Of a stretch of DNA of 64,000 nucleotides, positions 12,252 through 60,266 are shown piece after piece. Source of the stretch: Eledone cirrhosa (Eukaryota); NCBI GenBank assembly GCA_964016885.1, contig OZ024742.1, positions 279,186,001-279,250,000 on the forward strand. Reading direction: 5' to 3'. Each line of letters opens with the position of its first letter. Position 1 is the stretch's first letter. The notes below the pieces were generated by a model. The model had not been told where the DNA came from and did no database searches. It was given only the letters and a program-made list of their open reading frames with translations. Position numbers and translations under genes: made by a program.

Positions 12252-12310
<59 letters not shown>

Positions 12311-12317
<7 letters not shown>

Positions 12318-12740
12318 TAAACGGAATAGAAAATGCTGACAAATTGCTCACAGTTGAAAAATGGTTTAGTTAGGAATAAAAGAGTATTAGTGATTGTATG
12401 GGTTAGTATTCAGTTGTGGTTTTAAGTTTTTAAGTTTTTACCGGTTGAGCATTTCTAAATGCTTTTCAAAAATAATTTTGAGATAGAGTGTCCTTGCTGT
12501 TTGCTCTGATCAGAGCAGAGCAAACAGCACGGACACTCTATCTCAAAATTATTTTTGAAAAGCATTTAGAAATGCGCAACCGGTAAAAACTTAAAAACTT
12601 AAAACGTCAACTTTAACCCATACAATCACTAATACTCTTTTATTCCTAATTAAACCATTTTTCAACTGTGAACAATTTGTCACCATTTTCTATTCCGTTT
12701 ACCAATATATAATAACTTGTGTGTTACACCTCTATTCTTT

Positions 12741-12741
<1 letters not shown>
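12311..12741. repeat. Fold-back palindrome, family A (PLE 3'-end derived), between (TA)n tracts
   Basis: Arms of about 195 bp; axis at 12509/12510 in CTGATCAG; unpaired tail 12711-12741. Confidence 0.93.
12552..12588 (+). ncRNA. Variant minimal hammerhead (U3-A8, A13C), family A
   Basis: TTT TTGAAAA GCATTT ag AAATGC GCAAC CG GTA AAA; mirror copy on the other arm. Confidence 0.55.
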
Positions 12742-12820
<79 letters not shown>

Positions 12821-15066: not shown

Positions 15067-16084
15067 GAAAATGTTCGCTCTAAATGGCTGAATAAAATAA
15101 ATGTAATCTGAGTTTTTCGAATATTAATAATAACATTCGATTAGTTTGTAATAATGCAAACAAGCCTCAATTGTATAGCCATGTCAGTAGAATGAACCAT
15201 TCATTCTTGATCTGTTGTTGGCATGTGATCAGAACTGCAGACACTAATATTTCTGGGTACCACCCTTCATGAGTACAGCTCACTTTTCACCTGCCAAACA
15301 GTCAGAGCTAGTGAAAATATATGCTATTTTCTAAAATAGAGTGACTGATCGGCCTGATTTGCATGTTAGCAGAATGGCTGATCAGTCAAATCTGCATATT
15401 ACCAGATCCACTGATCATCCAGATTTGCATATCAGCAGACTGGCCAGTCAGTTTCCTGTATGCGAGCGATAAGTCACCGGCTTTGCCAAATTCAAATAAG
15501 AAAGAAAATGTTCGCTCTACATGGCTGAATACAATAAATGTAATCTGAGTTTTTAGAATATTAATAATAACATTCGATTCGTTTGCAATTATACAAACAA
15601 GCCTCAATTTTATAGCCATGTCAGCAGAATGAACCATTCATTCTTGCTCTTGTGTTGGCTTGTGAACAGAACTGCAGACACTAATGTTTCTGGGTATCTC
15701 CCTTCATCAGTACAGCTCACTGTTCACCTGCCAAACTGTCAGAGCTAGTGAAAATATATGCTATTTTCAAAAATACACAGTAAATTATCGGGTAATATGC
15801 AGATCTGACTGATCAGCCAGTCAGCTAATATGCAAATCAGGCCGATCAGTCTCTGTGTATTTTGAAAATAGCATATATTTTCCCTAGCTCTGACAGTTTG
15901 GCAGGTGAACAGTGCGCTGTACTGATGAAGGATTAGTGTCTGCAGTTCTTTTCGCACGCCAACACAGGTGCAAGAATGAAGGGTTCATTCTACTGACATG
16001 GCTATAAAATTGAGGCTTGTTTGCATAATTGCAAACGAATCGAATGTTATTATTAATATTCGAAAAACTCAGATTACATTTATT
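15066..16084. repeat. Partial tandem plus inverted pLTR-like repeat
   Basis: Direct copies start at 15066 and 15503; inverted copy at 15791-16084; flanked by (TA)n. Confidence 0.9.
15672..15715 (-). ncRNA. Type I minimal hammerhead ribozyme
   Basis: Minus strand: CTGTA CTGATGA A GGG agata CCC A GAAAC ATTAGT GTC TGCAG; all three stems pair. Confidence 0.8.
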
Positions 16085-20393: not shown

Positions 20394-20690
20394 AATATAA
20401 GGACGATTTGTTAGGCTTTCATTACGGTTATTGATTGGTGAGGCGCGTTTCGCTATTGATCAGCTCAAGGTTCGATCTCTGTCGATTGGGCCTGACTCTG
20501 GAATCAAAAGCTCGTCGGATCTCTGTTGATGTAATGACAGATTCTGTCATTACTATAAGAGAGGTCCGACGAGCTCTTGATTCCAGAGTCGGGCCCGATC
20601 GACACAGATCGAACCTTGAGCTGATCAATAACGAAACGCGCCCCACTAACCAATAAATGTATTGAAGGCTTAACCAATAGTCCTTATATT
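20394..20690. repeat. Fold-back palindrome with a 1-nt loop
   Basis: Axis at 20542 (gtaatgacaga-t-tctgtcattac); arms about 148 bp; reciprocal ORFs on both strands. Confidence 0.93.
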
Positions 20691-20716
20691 GTATATATAT
20701 ATATATATATATGTGT

Positions 20717-21118
20717 AAAAGAATAGAGGTGTAACACACAAGTTATTATATATGGGTAAACAGAATAGAAAATGCTGACAAATTGTTCACAGTGAAAAAT
20801 AGTTTAATTAGGAATAAGTGAGAATTAGTAATAGTATTGGTTAGTATTCAGTTTTGGTTTTAAGTTTTACCGGTTGCGCATTTCTAATGCTTTTCAAAAA
20901 TAATTTTGAGATAGAGTGTCCGTGATGTTTGCTCAGATCAGAGCAAACATCACGGACGCTCTATCTCAAAATTATTTTTGAAAAGCATTAGAAATGCGCA
21001 ACCGGTAAAACTTAAAACCAAAACTGAATACTAACCAATACTATTACTAATTCTCACTTATTCCTAATTAAACTATTTTTCACTGTGAACAATTTGTCAG
21101 CATTTTGTTTTCCGATTA

Positions 21119-21125
<7 letters not shown>
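20717..21125. repeat. Fold-back palindrome, family A, second locus
   Basis: Axis 20937/20938, equivalent to that of 12311-12741; tail on the left (opposite orientation); variant HHR at 20975-21010 (+) with a mirror copy. Confidence 0.93.
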
Positions 21126-21181
<56 letters not shown>

Positions 21182-28066: not shown

Positions 28067-28288
28067 TATTAGAAATGTAAGCTATCGCCGTATTTTGACT
28101 AAATAAATTAAAGAAAATATTTAGCCTGATAGTGGGGTTAAGTACCCTCGGAGAAATGTAAAAAGATGAGTATTGACGTACATGGGAGTCTTTTTCCATT
28201 CCTCCGAGGGTTCTTAACCCCACTATCAGGCTAAATAATTTCTTTAATTTCTTTAGTCAAAATACAGCGATAGCTTACATTTCTAATA
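28067..28288. repeat. Fold-back repeat related to 54031-54410
   Basis: Arms of about 95 bp around a roughly 26-nt spacer that matches the B-box-adjacent sequence at 54294-54320. Confidence 0.88.
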
Positions 28289-28837: not shown

Positions 28838-29017
28838 AACGAAGGAATTGTGGTAAGGAACCAGATGGAGTATAACGCACCAAAGTACTCAATACTTAGT
28901 TAGGAGAGTGGGTAATAGGAACAAATATGACCCCGACGGCAGAGCTCAGCCATTTTGACGGCTATTTCAGAAATAGCCGTCGAAACGAATTGAGCTCTGT
29001 CGTCGGGGTCATATTTG
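28838..29017. repeat. Family C unit ending in a 96-nt hairpin
   Basis: 28922-29017 is palindromic with its axis at 28969. Confidence 0.88.
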
Positions 29018-45865: not shown

Positions 45866-46207
45866 TATTATAAAGATAACGAAAAACCGTGATGCATCTG
45901 GACTTTGTTTATTTCGTGTTACAAATGTTTCGCCGGCATGTAGCTCGAGTCGTGGTCCTTGTATGGATCTGGCTGATTCTACTTCTGCGGGTTCTTTTAG
46001 ACACGGGTGTTATGTCCGGAGCAAATGTTATCAAATTTAGTGATAACATTTGCTCCGGACATAACACCCGTGTCTGAAAGAACTCGCAGAAGTAGAATCA
46101 GCCAGATCCATATAAGGACCATGACTCGAGCTACATGCCGGCGAAACATTTGTAACACGAAATAAACAAAGTCCAGATGCATCACTAATTTCGTTTTCTT
46201 TATAATA
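45866..46207. repeat. Fold-back palindrome, 7-nt loop
   Basis: Loop 46034-46040; arms about 165 bp. Confidence 0.93.
46069..46159 (+). ncRNA. Hammerhead-like motif with long stem II and an extra core nucleotide
   Basis: CGTGT CTGAAAGA [~60 nt] GAAAC ATTT GTA ACACG; perfect 5-bp stem I; mirror copy on the left arm. Confidence 0.55.
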
Positions 46208-46306: not shown

Positions 46307-46838
46307 AGAGAGAAAATTGAGGTTGGTAATGGCACATGGAATATATAAGAGACAGAATACTTTTTTGTGAAAAAAGCATATAATTTTATAAGGTAAGGAA
46401 ATAATAAAGGGTATAAAAAATGACCGGTTTCGATGAGTCTGCAAAAGCCATCTTTTCAAATGTTGATTTATATTAAGAAAAATTAATAATACGAAGAGTT
46501 AAAATTTGAGATTTGAAATTTCAAGTATAAAATTCATTGCTGTGTCCCTTTCTGGTAGTGACACTACCAGAAAGGGACACAGCAGTCAACTTGTTGCTAC
46601 CTAGATGAAAACTACTATGAAATCCCACAATGAATTTTATACTTGAATTTTCAAATCTCAAATTTTAACTCTTCGTATTATTAATTTTTCTTAATATTAA
46701 TCAATATTTGAAAAGATGGCTTTTATATTTTTTATACCCTTTATTATTTCCTTACCTTATAAAATTATATGTTTTTTCACAAAAAAGTATTCTGTCTCTT
46801 ATATATTCCATGTGCCATTACCAATCTCAAGTTTCTCT
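46307..46838. repeat. Fold-back palindrome with arm-specific indels
   Basis: Axis 46561 (tctggtagtg-a-cactaccaga); the right arm has about 44 extra nt and lacks the HHR 3' half. Confidence 0.92.
46417..46464 (-). ncRNA. Variant minimal hammerhead (U3-A8)
   Basis: Minus strand: AT TTGAAAA GATG gcttttgcagact CATC GAAAC CG GTC AT. Confidence 0.68.
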
Positions 46839-47743: not shown

Positions 47744-48418
47744 TTGGAGTTCTGAAATAGCAATATATATATGAATGTATATATAATGTATTTTGCAATA
47801 CACTTTATGCTTAATTAAAAGCATTTTGAAGACCGTATGCTATTGTTTTAGAGTAGTGACAAACTCACTTATTTTAATCTCAGCAAACAAGGGGAGATAA
47901 GCCGATAAGGCCTTGTTTCGCATTTATTGATGCTTATCAAGGCTAACTACTCCCTCCTGTCTACTGAGATCACTGATGTTATATTCTTATAGAATTTTGT
48001 GAGTTTGTCACTACTCTAAAACAATACCATACGGTCTTCAAAATGCGTTTAATTAAGCATAAAGTGTATTGCAAAATACATTATATATACATTCATATAT
48101 ATATTGCTATTTCAGAGCTCCAATTCTAATTTTTAATTTCTGCCTGACCCGCAACCGCTCTGTATAATCAGTTCCTGATTATTTACTAGAATTCTATAAG
48201 AATATAACATCAGTGATCTCAGTTGACAGGAGGGAGTAGTTAGCCTTGATAAGCATCAATAAATGCGGGACAAGGGCTTGTCGGCTCATCTCCCCTTGTT
48301 TGCTGAGATTAAAGTAAGTGAGTTTGTCACTACTCTAAAACAATAGCATACGGTCTTCAAAATGCTTTTAATTAAGCATAAAGTGTATTGCAAAATACAT
48401 TATATATACATTCATATA
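47739..48418. repeat. Inverted plus partial tandem pLTR-like structure
   Basis: 47739-47997 is inverted relative to 48001-48130 (tail) and 48190-48418; flanked by (TA)n. Confidence 0.92.
47900..47944 (-). ncRNA. Variant hammerhead (U3-A8); mirror copy at 48242-48286 (+)
   Basis: Two-copy consensus AGCC TTGATAA GCAT caataa ATGC GAAAC AAGGCCTT GTC GGCT; each copy carries different lesions. Confidence 0.75.
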
Positions 48419-54030: not shown

Positions 54031-54410
54031 GAAATTGAGTTAGAAATAGTAGCATTTGCTGCATTTGACTAAAGAAAATGAGCCAGATAATGGGGTTTAA
54101 CACTCTCTAAATGATAAAGGATCAGAACATAGGAGTGGAACCCTCATTTCTGGTTATCCAGACCAATTTGCTACCATTACACCAAATTAGAAACTATATA
54201 TATTAATCGTGAGAATAATATGAATGGGAAGGGATGGGTGATGCATTGGTGTAATTGTAGCGTATTGTTCTCGACAACCAAATATGTGGATTCGACTCCC
54301 ATGTACATCAATACTCATCCTTTTACATTTAGAGGGTTTTAACCCCCACTATCAGGCTAATTTTCTTTAGTCAAAATGAGGTAAAAGCTTCTATTTCTAA
54401 CTCAATTCCA
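54031..54410. mobile_element. Divergent inverted pair of tRNA-headed SINE-like units
   Basis: 54031-54184 is inverted relative to 54247-54410; the right unit has ggtgtaattgtagc (A-box-like) and ggattcgactccc (B-box-like). Confidence 0.7.
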
Positions 54411-54777: not shown

Positions 54778-54809
54778 CATATATATATATATAATTCAAG
54801 AAATAAGAG

Positions 54810-55290
54810 TAACATGGGTGGCTGTACAATAAGGGCTTTATTCACAGTGCTGACAATTGTTTCGTTGATCTGGTCGTTCTAGAGCTCACTAATCGCTTGG
54901 TGTTGCATCAATCCATCTCCAATATTTGTTTACAACCAGTCAATACATCAGAGTACGTTGATATGAAGATGATACGCAAGGCATGGCTTTTATAGGAGTA
55001 TGGTGTTAGACCAGAACAATAACATCAGTCACAAACTAACTAGATATTGAATAATTAAAACAATAACATCAATAAAAGTAAGAAATAGTGATAAAACAAG
55101 CATGATAAACAAACAGATATGATACAGATGTATTAAGTGACATGCGAAATCTACCATAGGTTAGATTAGAGGTAGTAGTCAAGGGATGAGTTAGATGAAG
55201 GGATAAATAATAAAATGTACTTAGAGTCAGGGTTTGGAATCTACACTTTAAGTGCAATTATGAGAGATTTAGATACAAGTGAGCTTTCGG
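54810..55290 (-). repeat. Family D pLTR-like repeat; diverged second copy at about 59215-59680
   Basis: Shared aataagggctttattcaca..tgctgacaattgtttc..atctccaata..taataacatcaata. Confidence 0.75.
54847..54956 (-). ncRNA. Hammerhead-like motif with ~80-nt stem II; second copy at 59243-59351
   Basis: Two-copy consensus GCT CTGATGA [TTGA CTGG...CCAG ATCAAC] GAAAC AATT GTC AGC; each copy has one core change. Confidence 0.6.
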
Positions 55291-55319
55291 TCTGACACCC
55301 TACCAACAATAAAACGGAG

Positions 55320-57140
55320 ATCCTAAAATGTTCAGTGGTACACAAAGAACAATTCTTTGTGCCACTTTCGTATCTAAAATAGACCAATCGATTGAGTACG
55401 GGATGTTTTTATCTTTGAATTCCCACACCCTATTTGCGAGAGCCGTTGCTGTTCTTTTATCAGAGTGTTTAAAAGAAGCGACATGTGCATAAAACCTGGT
55501 TTTGAACCTGTGCCGAGTCATGCCAACATATCGTTCACTCCTGGCTGGCTGGTTATTAACAAAGGTGTCACTTTGGCCTCATATACAACGGATTTGGTAT
55601 TACATTTGCCCTGTAATGGGCATTCATCCGCCTTCCTGCAACTGCATCCTGGACTTATTCTCGTACGATTAAAATTAGTTATTTTAGACTTCATTGATGG
55701 GCAGCAAGAGTAACTGATTTTAACTAAATTTCTATTAATTATCTAATAATATCTATGATTAGGAGGAAAATGTTTGTCTAAGAGGTCAAGGAATTTCCTT
55801 CCTACATTAGTTTTGACCGTTAGAGAGATGGGGAGGGGGTAAGCCAAATAATTTTCCTTTTTCTATTATTGTGATTAGTTTTAGGGGGAGGAGTAGGTAA
55901 ATATTTAATATGTTCTTAAACCCGCTGTTATTAAGGGCCTTATTATAATAAGGGGCGGCTTTGTTAAAAATGTCTAGAGACGAAGATATGGTAGAAATCC
56001 TACGGCTAATATTGGGAATGAGATTTTTTAAAACTATAGGGGGATGGCAAAACTCTTTGTGTATATATCTAAGATTTTCGTTAGGTTTATGATAAGGTTT
56101 AAAAGAGGCAGTAAGTAGATCAAGATTAATGTCAAGAAAGTTAGCATTGGTAAGGTTCGTATCTATAGTAATTTTAAGGTTTAGATTAGCAAAAAGATTT
56201 GATTAAATCTTTACAGAATTTATCAAGGGTATGGCCGTAGGTGGTATGAGAAACTTCCAATCCGTCGTCACGGTATAAACCGATATTATGGGAAGGAAAT
56301 CTCTCTTTAAGGGTGTGAATAATGAATAATCCTACTTAGTCACACACATCCGCACTGTCATATGAACGCATTGCAACATCAAAAGAGTTTTCAGGGTTTG
56401 ACTTTTTAACCCAAATACTTTCATTAGTAAAGAGTAGAGTTTTACTAGCATGAAAGATAATGTCTTCTTCTAATGTAGAAATATTAATGAAGGGTCTTGC
56501 AAAATCTAAGGCTTTAGTTAATAAGGAAACAGTAATAGAGGTGTAAAAATCAACAATATCAAATTGGGTAAATCTACACTTATTTTCTCCTTGTATTAAA
56601 CCAAGAAATTACAGAGGATGTATTTAACCATTGAGATAAGTCAGTCTTAGTTCTAATTTGGAGAATCATTTTTCTTAAGATTTTTTTACTTGCAAAGCCA
56701 ACTTCGGATTTAGACGGTTTAATCAGTCTACAGCTAGGTCGATTAGTAAAGTCTAATGTATGGTCTTTAAGGGTAATATATGCTTTACGTTTAGCTAGGA
56801 TTTCAATCCGGTTGTATATTTTTAAAACACTAGCTAGTACTTTAGCTTCTTTATTAATAGTATTGTAGGTGTTATTATTAGTTAATTGATATTTGTTGGT
56901 GATACTATTAGTTAAAAGTTGGTTATACAAAATACTATTTTCTTCAAAGAGATTTTTAGGTTTATCGGAAAGAACAAAAGTGTTTGTAGAATTTTTAAAA
57001 TTAGAAATATCGTTAGAAAGTTTAGTTTGAAAATTATTATTGTACTTACGAAATTTGATATCACTAATTAAATTAACAAGGTCTAATTCGAAGTTGGCCA
57101 TGTCTTTAATTCTATGTGAGTATTTACGGGATTTTATGTC
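55320..57140 (-). mobile_element. Naiad-type Penelope-like element, decayed
   Basis: CRLIKPSKSEVG; FTQFDIVDFYTSI; FDVAMRSYDSADVC; IGLYRDDGL; GCSCRKADECPLQGKC..VVYEAKV..YVGMT..FKTRFYAH; CSLCTTE. Subclade call is from recalled motifs. Confidence 0.88.
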
Positions 57141-57763
57141 AAAACAATCATATATGTATATATATACTACATGCATATTGTGTACATGTACGTATGTATG
57201 TTTGTATATATATATATTGCAAGGGTTTTGATATGAAATCGTGTGTCGAAACAAATAGTTATACTTGGGAAGGGTCCTATAGTTGTAATAATATTGCCAG
57301 AATTAATAATAGAACACACTCACTGTTTGGTTTGTTTTCGCTTCTGTATCTTTTATATCAGTTAATTCATTCGGTCCTCAATCTACAAAAACGTCTTCTA
57401 CAAAACGTGAAAGCCACTTCAACTTGCCTGAACTCCAAGACCGAGATCTACAGATGTTTTCCTCACCTGAAACCACATCTGATCTGTAACTGGATTGACA
57501 TTCCTACGATGATTCAACCACCCTGAACTTCTTATCTGCCCTCTACGCCTTACATCCACTACGATTTTTATTACTTTCTGAACTCACTATCTCAACTCAT
57601 TTATATTTATATTCTTTTTCTCCATTACCTCCCCTTTTATTTAAACTTTTTCCTATGTCATTTATTTTCCTTCTTCCTCCTACTTTCTACCTTACCCTTT
57701 ACATACCCACCTTTTTATTTATAGATATTTATAGATATATTATTTCTGTGTGTATATATGTGT

Positions 57764-58478: not shown

Positions 58479-58511
58479 GTATATATATATATATATATAT
58501 ATATATTTTAA

Positions 58512-58880
58512 AAAAATAGAGGCGTAACACACGAGTTGTGATATATTAGCAAAAGAAAAAGAAAATGCTGACAAATTTTTCCCAGTGAAAAATAGTTTAA
58601 TTAGCAATAAGTATAAATTACTAATAAGTATTGGTTAGGATTCAGTTTTATTTTTAAGATTTTACCGGTTGCGCATTTCTAATTCTTTTCAAAAATAATT
58701 TTGAGATAGAGCGCTCGTGATGTTTGCTCTAATCTGATCAGTTTTGGAAATTCTTCCTGTTTTATGTGAAAAATGTGGCTCCAGAGGTATTAAGATTTGG
58801 TTGGTTTGAATGTCACGTGAATGAGTACTATAAATTTTGCGCCAATTCGTGTTGCAAAGATTCTTGTAGTCAAAACAATT
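58512..58880 (-). mobile_element. Linear (non-palindromic) family A copy continuing into a PLE endonuclease C-terminus
   Basis: Matches 20717-20940, then continues past CTGATCAG into frameshifted FDYK..NWRK..HIQTN.PNLN-like sequence. Confidence 0.75.
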
Positions 58881-58899
58881 TATATATATATATATACAC

Positions 58900-58934
<35 letters not shown>

Positions 58935-58935
58935 C

Positions 58936-59019
<84 letters not shown>

Positions 59020-59743
59020 GGGATAACAAGTTATCGTTATGGCAGTCCACTTAGATATAGTCCAGTTGGAGTAGTTCTTGTAGTGGATAGTATTATCGTG
59101 TGGCTTAGTTTGGCTCAACAAGACGTTTCCACAGTGATGCAGCGAGTTCGCGGTGATTTCTATGTAGTTTATACTTGGAGCAATAATAATTCATGAAAGA
59201 AGATTGACATGGTTCGCTATAAAATAAGGGCTTTATTCACATTGCTGACAATTGTTTCTTTTATCTGGTAGGTCTAGAATTCGCTATACACCTGATTATG
59301 CGCCAATCGATCTCCAATACTTTGTTCATAACCAATCTTTTTCATCGGAGCGGGTGAAATGAAGAAAATACATAACGCATGGTTTTTATATAAGTGTGGT
59401 ATTAAACAAAACAATAATATCAACGATAACATAAAATAACTAGATAGCAGACAATTAAAATAATAACATCAATATAAGTAAGATATAGAGTATAATGGAG
59501 AATCTAGCATGTTAAACCAACTGATATGATACAGATATATGGAATTGACATGTGAAAACTGCTGTAGGGTAAATTAGATATAGTAATGGGGCAGCGAATA
59601 GATAACAGTTACCACAAAGATGTACTTGGAGACAGAATTTATGAGGTATCTACTCTGCTGTAGGCATTCTAGCAATAAACCGGAGATTTACTTTTTATTT
59701 TTTTACTATTTGACAGATAGTGTATCATAGTGTATATATATAT

Positions 59744-60111
59744 ATATACGATATTAACAAATGGAAACTATATTTATAAAACCATATCTATTTTATTATA
59801 CATATTTCAAGGATACCATGTTAAATTATGGTATGCTTTCATCAGACAAAATACAATATATACCAGTTTTATAAATAAATATTGACATACCTTTCAAAAT
59901 GCAACCGTTACTTTTGGAAGACACCCCATATGTCTTCCAAAAGTAACGGTTGCATTTTGAAAGGGTATGTCAATATTTATTTATAAGACAGGTATATATT
60001 GTATTTTGTCTGATGAAAGCATACCATAATTTAACATGGTATCCTTGAAATATGTATAATAAAATAGATATGGTTTTATAAATATAGTTTCCATTTGTTA
60101 ATATCGTATAT
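59744..60111. repeat. Near-perfect fold-back palindrome, 7-nt loop
   Basis: Loop 59924-59930; arms about 180 bp with very few mismatches. Confidence 0.95.
60002..60066 (+). ncRNA. Type I hammerhead; mirror copy at about 59788-59852 (-)
   Basis: TATTTTGT CTGATGA AAG c ATACCAT aatttaac ATGGTAT c CTT GAA ATA tg TAT A ATAAAATA; AUA site. Confidence 0.78.
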
Positions 60112-60193
60112 TTACTCCAAATACTTGTCGAGTGCTTTATATCATTTATAAAAATATTTGGTTGTTGTATCCCAACAATTTATTTAGAACTTT

Positions 60194-60266
<73 letters not shown>

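What the first reader, a model, noticed from the sequence alone, without database searches (positions are those of the whole stretch)
58512..58880. Linear relative reveals the origin of the family A palindrome
Seen: this copy has the tail and one arm, then passes through CTGATCAG (58734-58741) into sequence resembling a GIY-YIG C-terminus on the minus strand. Inference: the arm is a PLE 3' UTR/pLTR, and a built-in 8-bp palindrome near the ORF end lets the nascent cDNA self-prime and fold back.
Basis: partly seen in the sequence, partly recalled or inferred. Interest (0 to 1): 0.7.

Follow-up and report, generated by a model that had tools for sequence, protein, structure and literature searches.

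The report
Penelope stub; palindrome axis misassigned
This stretch is the non-coding tail end of an abundant Penelope-like jumping gene, and the related mirror-image copies do not fold at the 8-base palindrome it carries but 2-5 bases short of it, at a spot where copies often end, likely because two copies made from the two cut DNA ends run to the start of the element's RNA and are joined head to head.

Summary
The linear copy is real: 58507-58880 is a 5'-truncated end (tail plus pLTR/3'UTR) of a ~4.95-kb Penelope-like element (RT + C-terminal GIY-YIG) lying between (TA)n runs. (1) 58740-58880 is non-coding: the GIY-YIG stop lies 958-1,283 nt away in 5 long copies. (2) CTGATCAG is not the fold axis: 380 linear copies carry it, 0 palindromes fold at its centre, among 1,072 head-to-head junctions. 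The window's family A palindromes come from sister subfamilies mostly lacking it (3,688 copies); their CTGATCAG is created by the junction. Axes sit at 58732/33 or 58735, a hot spot where 48 of 100 arms end, 14 without a mirror. The longer arm is tailed or tail-less about equally (19:16), which disfavours snap-back and favours twin priming to a likely RNA start, joined by 0-4 nt pairing. Inverted pLTRs, tails and self-priming are published; this scan already proposed twin priming for other families in this genome.

The parts
58480..58506 (.). (TA)n target run on the element's 3' side
58507..58540 (-). PLE 'tail' (about 30-34 nt; edges blurred by TA-like bases); in the full element it lies just upstream of the ORF start
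   Evidence: 19 of 30 top relatives start at query position 30 or later, i.e. lack it; L035 5' pLTR, tail, then ATG 30 nt on
58541..58736 (-). pLTR segment that forms the arm of the family A palindromes; likely the first ~195 nt of the element's RNA
   Evidence: RNA start is inferred
58730..58741 (-). 5'-end hot spot: 48 of 100 sampled arms end here; palindrome axes map to 58732/58733 (GATC type) and 58735 (TAATC-N-GATTA type)
58734..58741 (.). CTGATCAG 8-mer: real, a minority subfamily variant (380 vs 3,688 exact linear copies), not used as fold axis (0 matches)
58742..58880 (-). non-coding 3'UTR/pLTR upstream of the hot spot, with CACGTG (58814), an E2F-like site (58835) and CCAAT (58842); likely promoter; not GIY-YIG coding
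   Evidence: motif names recalled, promoter role inferred
58881..59018 (.). (TA)n run at the 5' truncation point
20716..21127 (.). family A palindrome A2, tail on left arm, axis 20937/20938, junction with one unpaired position; arms 98-99% identical to linear copies lacking the 8-mer
12309..12743 (.). family A palindrome A1, tail on right arm, axis 12509/12510; its CTGATCAG (12506-12513) is a junction product and a 5-nt duplication in the right arm mimics register with 58734-58741

Best explanation
58507-58880 is a 5'-truncated, non-coding terminal piece of an abundant endonuclease-bearing Penelope-like retrotransposon inserted in (TA)n, and the related palindromes are likely made by twin priming: both cut target ends would prime reverse transcription, one at the tailed and one at the tail-less start site, and both cDNAs would run off at a likely RNA 5' end (58734-58736) and be joined head to head. 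SHOWN: element anatomy (4.95 kb, RT, CxxC linker, C-terminal GIY-YIG, ~1.3-kb 3'UTR, direct 5' pLTR + tail before the ATG); two 3' end points ~30 nt apart; one tail per inverted pair; the end hot spot; axis positions; non-use of the 8-mer. INFERRED: that the hot spot is the transcription start (upstream promoter-like motifs, occasional extra C); that both target ends prime; that joining uses whatever 0-4 nt pairing the ends offer (GATC overlap in TGATC subfamilies, a 1-nt spacer in TAATC subfamilies). The copy in this finding is a single cDNA from a longer read-through RNA that passed the hot spot and stopped 145 nt further on (inferred).
For: Full element: (GIY-YIG PF01541 E 6e-7, RVT_1 PF00078 E 8e-9). 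Hot spot: 48 of 100 arms end within 12 nt after the arm motif, 0 in the next 30 nt, 3 in the 12 after that (the 48 come from 37 insertions); 14 of them have no mirror arm (hand count). Junctions, first 50 of 1,072 listed (hand count): 21 spacer-less GATC overlaps, 7 with one unpaired T, 4 with TGATCTG plus G/T, 7 TAATC-N-GATTA, 5 with an extra C, 6 other, 0 at the 8-mer centre. A spacer-less GATC overlap cannot form as a hairpin of one strand, and a linear source with that register is rare (4 matches, 3 linear). In the finding's own subfamily 7 of 10 listed head-to-head pairs have a 1-nt spacer and 0 of 10 the 6-nt spacer an 8-mer fold would give, although 8 of 13 linear copies among 30 loci carry the intact 8-mer. 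Polarity: longer arm tailed 19, tail-less 16 of 35 asymmetric one-tailed short palindromes (48 examined; p=0.74); 27 of 29 long inverted pairs have exactly one tail and in at least 6 (L208-L211, L213, L042) the shorter arm holds a tail that the longer arm lacks. The one stable cDNA hairpin (-3.7 to -4.2 kcal/mol) predicts a junction found 0 times in the loci held. In vitro a PLE protein cuts and extends both strands and starts at two sites that bound the tail (PMC11167929).
Against: No RNA data place the 5' end; the hot spot could be an RT stop or a processed end, and lone arms end at several positions (+4 to +9), not one. TAATC-T-GATTA junctions coincide with a real 13-nt odd palindrome in GATTAG-type parents, and TGATCTGA junctions can be drawn as a 2-bp hairpin, so some junctions fit snap-back. 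Long pairs lean to the tailed arm being longer (18:9 by script; 15:11 with 3 unclear when I re-read). Tail removal from either end by the endonuclease (suggested in PMC8557442) would also randomise polarity. Arm-versus-arm identity did not discriminate (own arm closest in 16, tied in 5, of 40). Samples are the first-listed matches on contig C1 or copies picked by likeness, not random draws.
Confidence: 0.62

Rival explanations
1. Snap-back self-priming near the template end: one cDNA reaches the hot spot, folds on a short imperfect repeat (GA with TC around GATC, or CTAATC-T-GATTAG) and copies itself; the tail is then trimmed from either end during integration.
For: Published inference for PLE junction palindromes (PMC3846280, Discussion). 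7 of 50 junctions coincide with the 13-nt odd palindrome of GATTAG-type parents and 11 of 50 fit a 1-2 bp fold. Arms of one palindrome carry the same subfamily marks.
Against: 21 of 50 junctions are zero-loop overlaps; no such fold appears in the predicted cDNA structures; shorter arms carry a tail the longer arm lacks; palindromes with arm marks that go with the GATCAG parent in 33 of 34 linear copies still join at TAATC-N-GATTA or next to it (L229-L231, L242, L250); 14 lone arms end at the same spot.
Confidence: 0.25
2. One reading: the perfect 8-mer CTGATCAG near the ORF end is the built-in fold point of family A.
For: The 8-mer exists here and in 380 linear copies; perfect palindromes show CTGATCAG at their centre (17 of 50 exact); 3 linear copies have the one-unit register.
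Against: 0 palindromes with the predicted junction; true parents lack the 8-mer; it is ~1 kb from the ORF end; hairpin +1.5 kcal/mol.
Confidence: 0.04
3. The palindromes are a self-propagating non-autonomous (MITE-like) family from one old fold-back.
For: 1,072 junctions with a common centre and near-constant size.
Against: Junctions differ among copies (6 classes in 50); junction polarity relative to the tail is random; both arms track the several linear subfamilies.
Confidence: 0.06
4. Long-read fold-back assembly artefact or later recombination between two inserted copies.
For: Perfect palindromes are a known read artefact (recalled).
Against: One-sided tails, a fixed position in the element and TA flanks; contigs of separate public runs bridge the 20937/20938 junction type with 31 or more letters each side (records 3 and 21; one sample, family copies rather than this locus).
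Confidence: 0.03

Closest known systems
Canonical EN+ Penelope-like elements with an inverted 5'-truncated pLTR and one-sided tail (Adineta vaga Pen families, PMC3846280; scheme in PMC8557442)
   Same: Single RT + C-terminal GIY-YIG ORF, direct pLTR, adjacent inverted truncated copy, 30-40-nt tail on one end, palindrome at the inverted junction, microsatellite targets.
   Different: Thousands of copies; about a thousand ORF-less 410-bp palindromes with one shared centre; here the junction palindrome is mostly a product of joining, not a parental feature; no hammerhead found by Rfam or a core pattern.
Neptune/Nematis clades of PLEs (PMC8557442)
   Same: [quoted passage not shown]
   Different: Clade not fixed by a tree; 3'UTR ~1.3 kb with (CA)n runs.
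PAc (Poseidon of Anolis carolinensis) in vitro, PMC11167929
   Same: Two start sites bounding the tail; cutting and extension of both strands would supply both primers.
   Different: Here the tail lies just before the ATG rather than 111+ nt inside the ORF, and both ends abut TA-like bases of the element, so short pairing with the target is possible, whereas PAc starts at a site not homologous to the cut DNA.
L1 twin priming (Ostertag and Kazazian 2001, seen only as described in PMC2246262)
   Same: Both sides of the break prime on the RNA and give an inversion.
   Different: In L1 the second primer lands internally (recalled), so arms do not overlap; here both would start at the element's 3' end, giving true mirror arms.

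Membership tests
EN+ Penelope-like element | Reverse transcriptase domain in the parent element | tested here: met
   RVT_1 E 8.3e-9 on a 289-aa piece of L035
EN+ Penelope-like element | C-terminal GIY-YIG endonuclease | tested here: met
   PF01541 E 6.2e-7 on the last 211 aa of L046; order RT then EN
EN+ Penelope-like element | pLTR from partial tandem arrangement | tested here: met
   L035 carries a 266-nt direct repeat of its 3' end before the ATG; L219 similar
EN+ Penelope-like element | 30-40-nt tail on one end; adjacent inverted truncated copy | tested here: met
   27 of 29 long inverted pairs have one tail; 40 of 48 short palindromes
EN+ Penelope-like element | Hammerhead ribozyme in the pLTR (typical, not universal) | tested here: inconclusive
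   No hammerhead among Rfam matches on L035; canonical core pattern absent from the pLTR of 4 long copies and from this copy; variant descriptors not run
EN+ Penelope-like element | Target-site duplication | not testable with these tools
   Both flanks are (TA)n
Neptune/Nematis clade | CX2-5CxxC linker and CCHH residues in the endonuclease | tested here: met
   Read by eye in the translations of L032, L042, L046; feature definition from PMC8557442
Neptune/Nematis clade | RT phylogeny with reference elements | not tested
   No reference sequences fetched
Naiad/Chlamys PLEs | N-terminal GIY-YIG | tested here: not met
   Endonuclease is C-terminal
GIY-YIG coding sequence (claim for 58740-58880) | Protein homology and kept reading frame | tested here: not met
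   blastx E >= 0.98; stop codon 958-1,283 nt away; frame-breaking length variants
Self-priming at a parental palindrome (CTGATCAG) | Parent carries the palindrome and junctions centre on it | tested here: not met
Twin priming | Each arm holds sequence the other lacks; no fixed first arm | tested here: met
   not unique to this model if tails are trimmed afterwards
Twin priming | Both target ends prime; cDNAs end at the RNA 5' end | not testable with these tools
   Needs capped-RNA mapping and an in vitro reaction

The most novel reading that the evidence does not exclude
Head-to-head PLE palindromes are made by two target-primed cDNAs, one from each of the two tail-bounding start sites, that both run to the capped 5' end of a pLTR-initiated RNA and are joined; the 'junction palindromes' cited in print as signs of self-priming are products of that join. 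This family gives a natural control: the subfamily with the strongest potential self-pairing (the perfect 8-mer, -9.3 kcal/mol as a dimer) never uses it because it lies just beyond the RNA start.
Probability: 0.5. Interest if true: 0.55.

Novelty: new member of a known kind. Interest (0 to 1): 0.27.

Why it matters
The locus itself is an ordinary dead transposon stub. Its value is as a test case: how Penelope-like elements make their inverted ends is still listed as open (PMC8557442, PMC11167929), and the published reading is self-priming at junction palindromes (PMC3846280). With about 7,500 arms, 1,072 junctions and subfamilies that differ in the bases at the axis, this family shows that position, not a perfect parental palindrome, fixes the fold point, and it names the RNA, the two start sites and the expected products for an in vitro test.

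Tried and rejected
GIY-YIG reading of 58740-58880: rejected. Parentage by the decayed PLE at ~54794-57150: no DNA match to family A in the window self-comparison; a different element. Hammerhead at the axis: none found. Register-shifted linear parent: only 4 matches. Snap-back on the stable cDNA hairpin: predicted junction absent from the loci held. Arm-versus-arm identity as a test of shared template: uninformative. RNA evidence: no RNA holder listed, so the RNA start was not tested; only contigs were laid. Look-up of earlier notes by sequence: nothing. The long-pair polarity script mis-scored at least four loci (L007, L049, L219, L222) against the coordinates, so both counts are given. Paper searches listed no paper applying twin priming to PLE palindromes; subscription papers such as Arkhipova 2006 are outside the library, and no supplements were read.

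Full report
Observation. The window lies in a 3.0-Gb genome (G000:C3:279186001-279250000). 58512-58740 aligns to both arms of two palindromes in the window, 12309-12743 (A1) and 20716-21127 (A2), and carries the ~30-nt extension found on one arm of each. CTGATCAG is at 58734-58741, and the copy runs on to 58880, with (TA)n on both sides. These parts of the finding are real.

What the copy is. The 40 best-scored genomic relatives of 58690-58880 are 96-97% identical, and most continue past 58880. Of 19 oriented 10-kb loci, four share more than 4 kb (L032, L035, L042, L046). [quoted passage not shown] L035 has a 266-nt direct repeat of its own 3' end, then the tail, then an ATG 30 nt on: a pLTR-ORF-pLTR unit of about 4.95 kb. 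An arm motif has 7,509 exact matches genome-wide, reversed control 0.

58740-58880 is not coding. The GIY-YIG stop lies 958-1,283 nt from the 8-mer in 5 of 6 long copies checked (the sixth had no match to the stop pattern). blastx of the segment gives best E 0.98 against 74 ORF pieces of its own element and 1.7 against the neighbouring PLE; Pfam finds nothing in the one open frame scanned. The homologous segment is 75-152 nt long among 97 copies, with main classes of 93, 111-112 and 148 nt. It carries CACGTG, an E2F-like site and CCAAT 80-110 nt upstream of the axis; the first two occur only twice in the 4.9-kb element, both times in this region. I read this as a promoter (inference; motif names recalled).

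The 8-mer is not the axis. A2's centre (20937/20938) aligns to 58732/58733, 5 nt short of the 8-mer's centre. The parent has a 5-nt tandem, T[AG]ATC-TGAT[CT], which lets an alignment slip; A1 has a 5-nt duplication in its right arm that makes the slipped register look natural. Against 121 linear arms, A2's arms are 98-99% identical to copies reading T[GA]ATCTGATTAG (7 of the top 8 for each arm) and 90-91% to this copy; A1's arms are 95-98% identical to such copies (8 of 8) and 79-81% to this copy. Genome-wide exact counts: 3,688 linear copies without the 8-mer, 380 with it (patterns differ slightly in length), 4 with the one-unit register (3 linear), 1,072 head-to-head junctions, and 0 with the junction that a fold at the 8-mer predicts. 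The CTGATCAG seen at the centre of perfect palindromes is CTGATC from the parent plus AG from the mirror arm. In the finding's own subfamily, 7 of 10 listed pairs have a 1-nt spacer after TAATC and none the 6-nt spacer of an 8-mer fold. A forced hairpin on the 8-mer costs +1.5 kcal/mol.

The axis is an end hot spot. I fetched all 100 listed matches. 48 end within 12 nt after the arm motif (58730-58741), 0 in the next 30 nt, 3 in the 12 after that, and 49 run on. The 48 come from 37 insertions; 14 are lone arms ending in (TA)n or unrelated DNA (hand count). So cDNAs stop here whether or not a mirror arm follows. The first 50 junctions listed, classed by hand: 21 spacer-less GATC overlaps (17 exact, 4 with one change), 7 with one unpaired T, 4 TGATCTG plus G or T, 7 TAATC-N-GATTA, 5 with an extra C after T[GA]ATC, 6 other. 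The extra C would fit copying of a cap (inference; lead from notes e1-10352193 and e1-9849436).

Snap-back or two primers. In target-primed snap-back the first arm must be the longer one and the second cannot hold sequence that the first lacks. Among 48 short palindromes, 40 have one tail; of the 35 that are also asymmetric, the longer arm is tailed in 19 and tail-less in 16 (p=0.74; 6 had no tail, 2 were flagged on both sides, one of them from flanking DNA; 18 of the 48 were picked by likeness to A2). Among 29 long inverted pairs, 27 have exactly one tail; the tailed arm is longer in 18 and shorter in 9 by script, 15 and 11 with 3 unclear on re-reading. In L208-L211, L213 and L042 the tail-less arm is longer by hundreds to thousands of bases, so each arm has sequence the other lacks. 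Zero-loop GATC overlaps need two strands (dimer -3.9 kcal/mol; TGATCTGA ends -5.9). The only stable cDNA hairpin predicts a junction seen 0 times in the loci held. Against this: TAATC-T-GATTA junctions match a real odd palindrome in GATTAG-type parents, T-T junctions can be drawn as a 2-bp hairpin, later trimming of tails would randomise polarity, and no RNA data locate the start. I put twin priming at about 0.6 and snap-back at 0.25. I took the twin-priming idea from earlier notes of this scan and tested it here.

Comparison with print. PMC3846280 (abstract, first part of Results, passages and the whole Discussion read) describes inverted pLTRs, a 31-bp one-sided tail and junction palindromes, and infers self-priming. 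PMC11167929 (parts 1-2 of 4, covering the main text) shows cutting and extension of both strands and two RT start sites bounding the tail. PMC8557442 (passages) gives the clade features, the (TA)n bias, and lists formation of inverted structures as unresolved. PMC4209133 (passages) notes hammerhead pairs on opposite strands 100-700 bp apart. L1 twin priming was seen only as summarised in PMC2246262. Searches listed no paper that applies twin priming to PLE palindromes; much older PLE literature is outside the library.

Verdict. The remaining interest is the evidence on mechanism, which this scan has already reached in other families of the same genome. Interest 0.27.

Noticed in passing
window 58507 and 58541-58546; L035 5' pLTR: Both 3' end points of the family abut TA-like bases inside the element, so a few bases of pairing with the nicked (TA)n target may guide initiation, unlike the non-homologous start reported for PAc.
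   Followed up: partly
window 54794-57150, minus strand: A second, unrelated decayed PLE with RT and GIY-YIG motifs; its end resembles 59189-59585 at 76%.
   Followed up: partly
window 59749-60196: Family J palindrome with a one-sided extension of about 85-90 nt, longer than the usual 30-40-nt tail, and a CCCC-containing centre absent from its linear parent.
   Followed up: partly
window 20401-20683: Family B palindrome next to A2; axis at an arm-end hot spot with 1 nt overlap and no parental palindrome.
   Followed up: partly
window 15534-16083, 28067-28288, 28930-29009, 45873-46200, 46309-46838, 47792-48075, 54033-54407: Seven more palindromes of unrelated sequence; at least two (28930-29009, 46309-46838) have a 1-nt centre, too short for a hairpin loop.
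   Followed up: no
L033 (G000:C6:50676000-50685999), L140, L237: Family A ends joined to RT-coding DNA: in L033 a tail fragment is followed by RT sequence of a different PLE; in L140 and L237 an arm switches into RT-coding sequence.
   Followed up: no
L043, L040, L210: Long inverted pairs with internal jumps or extra inverted pieces between the arms, suggesting repeated template switches.
   Followed up: no
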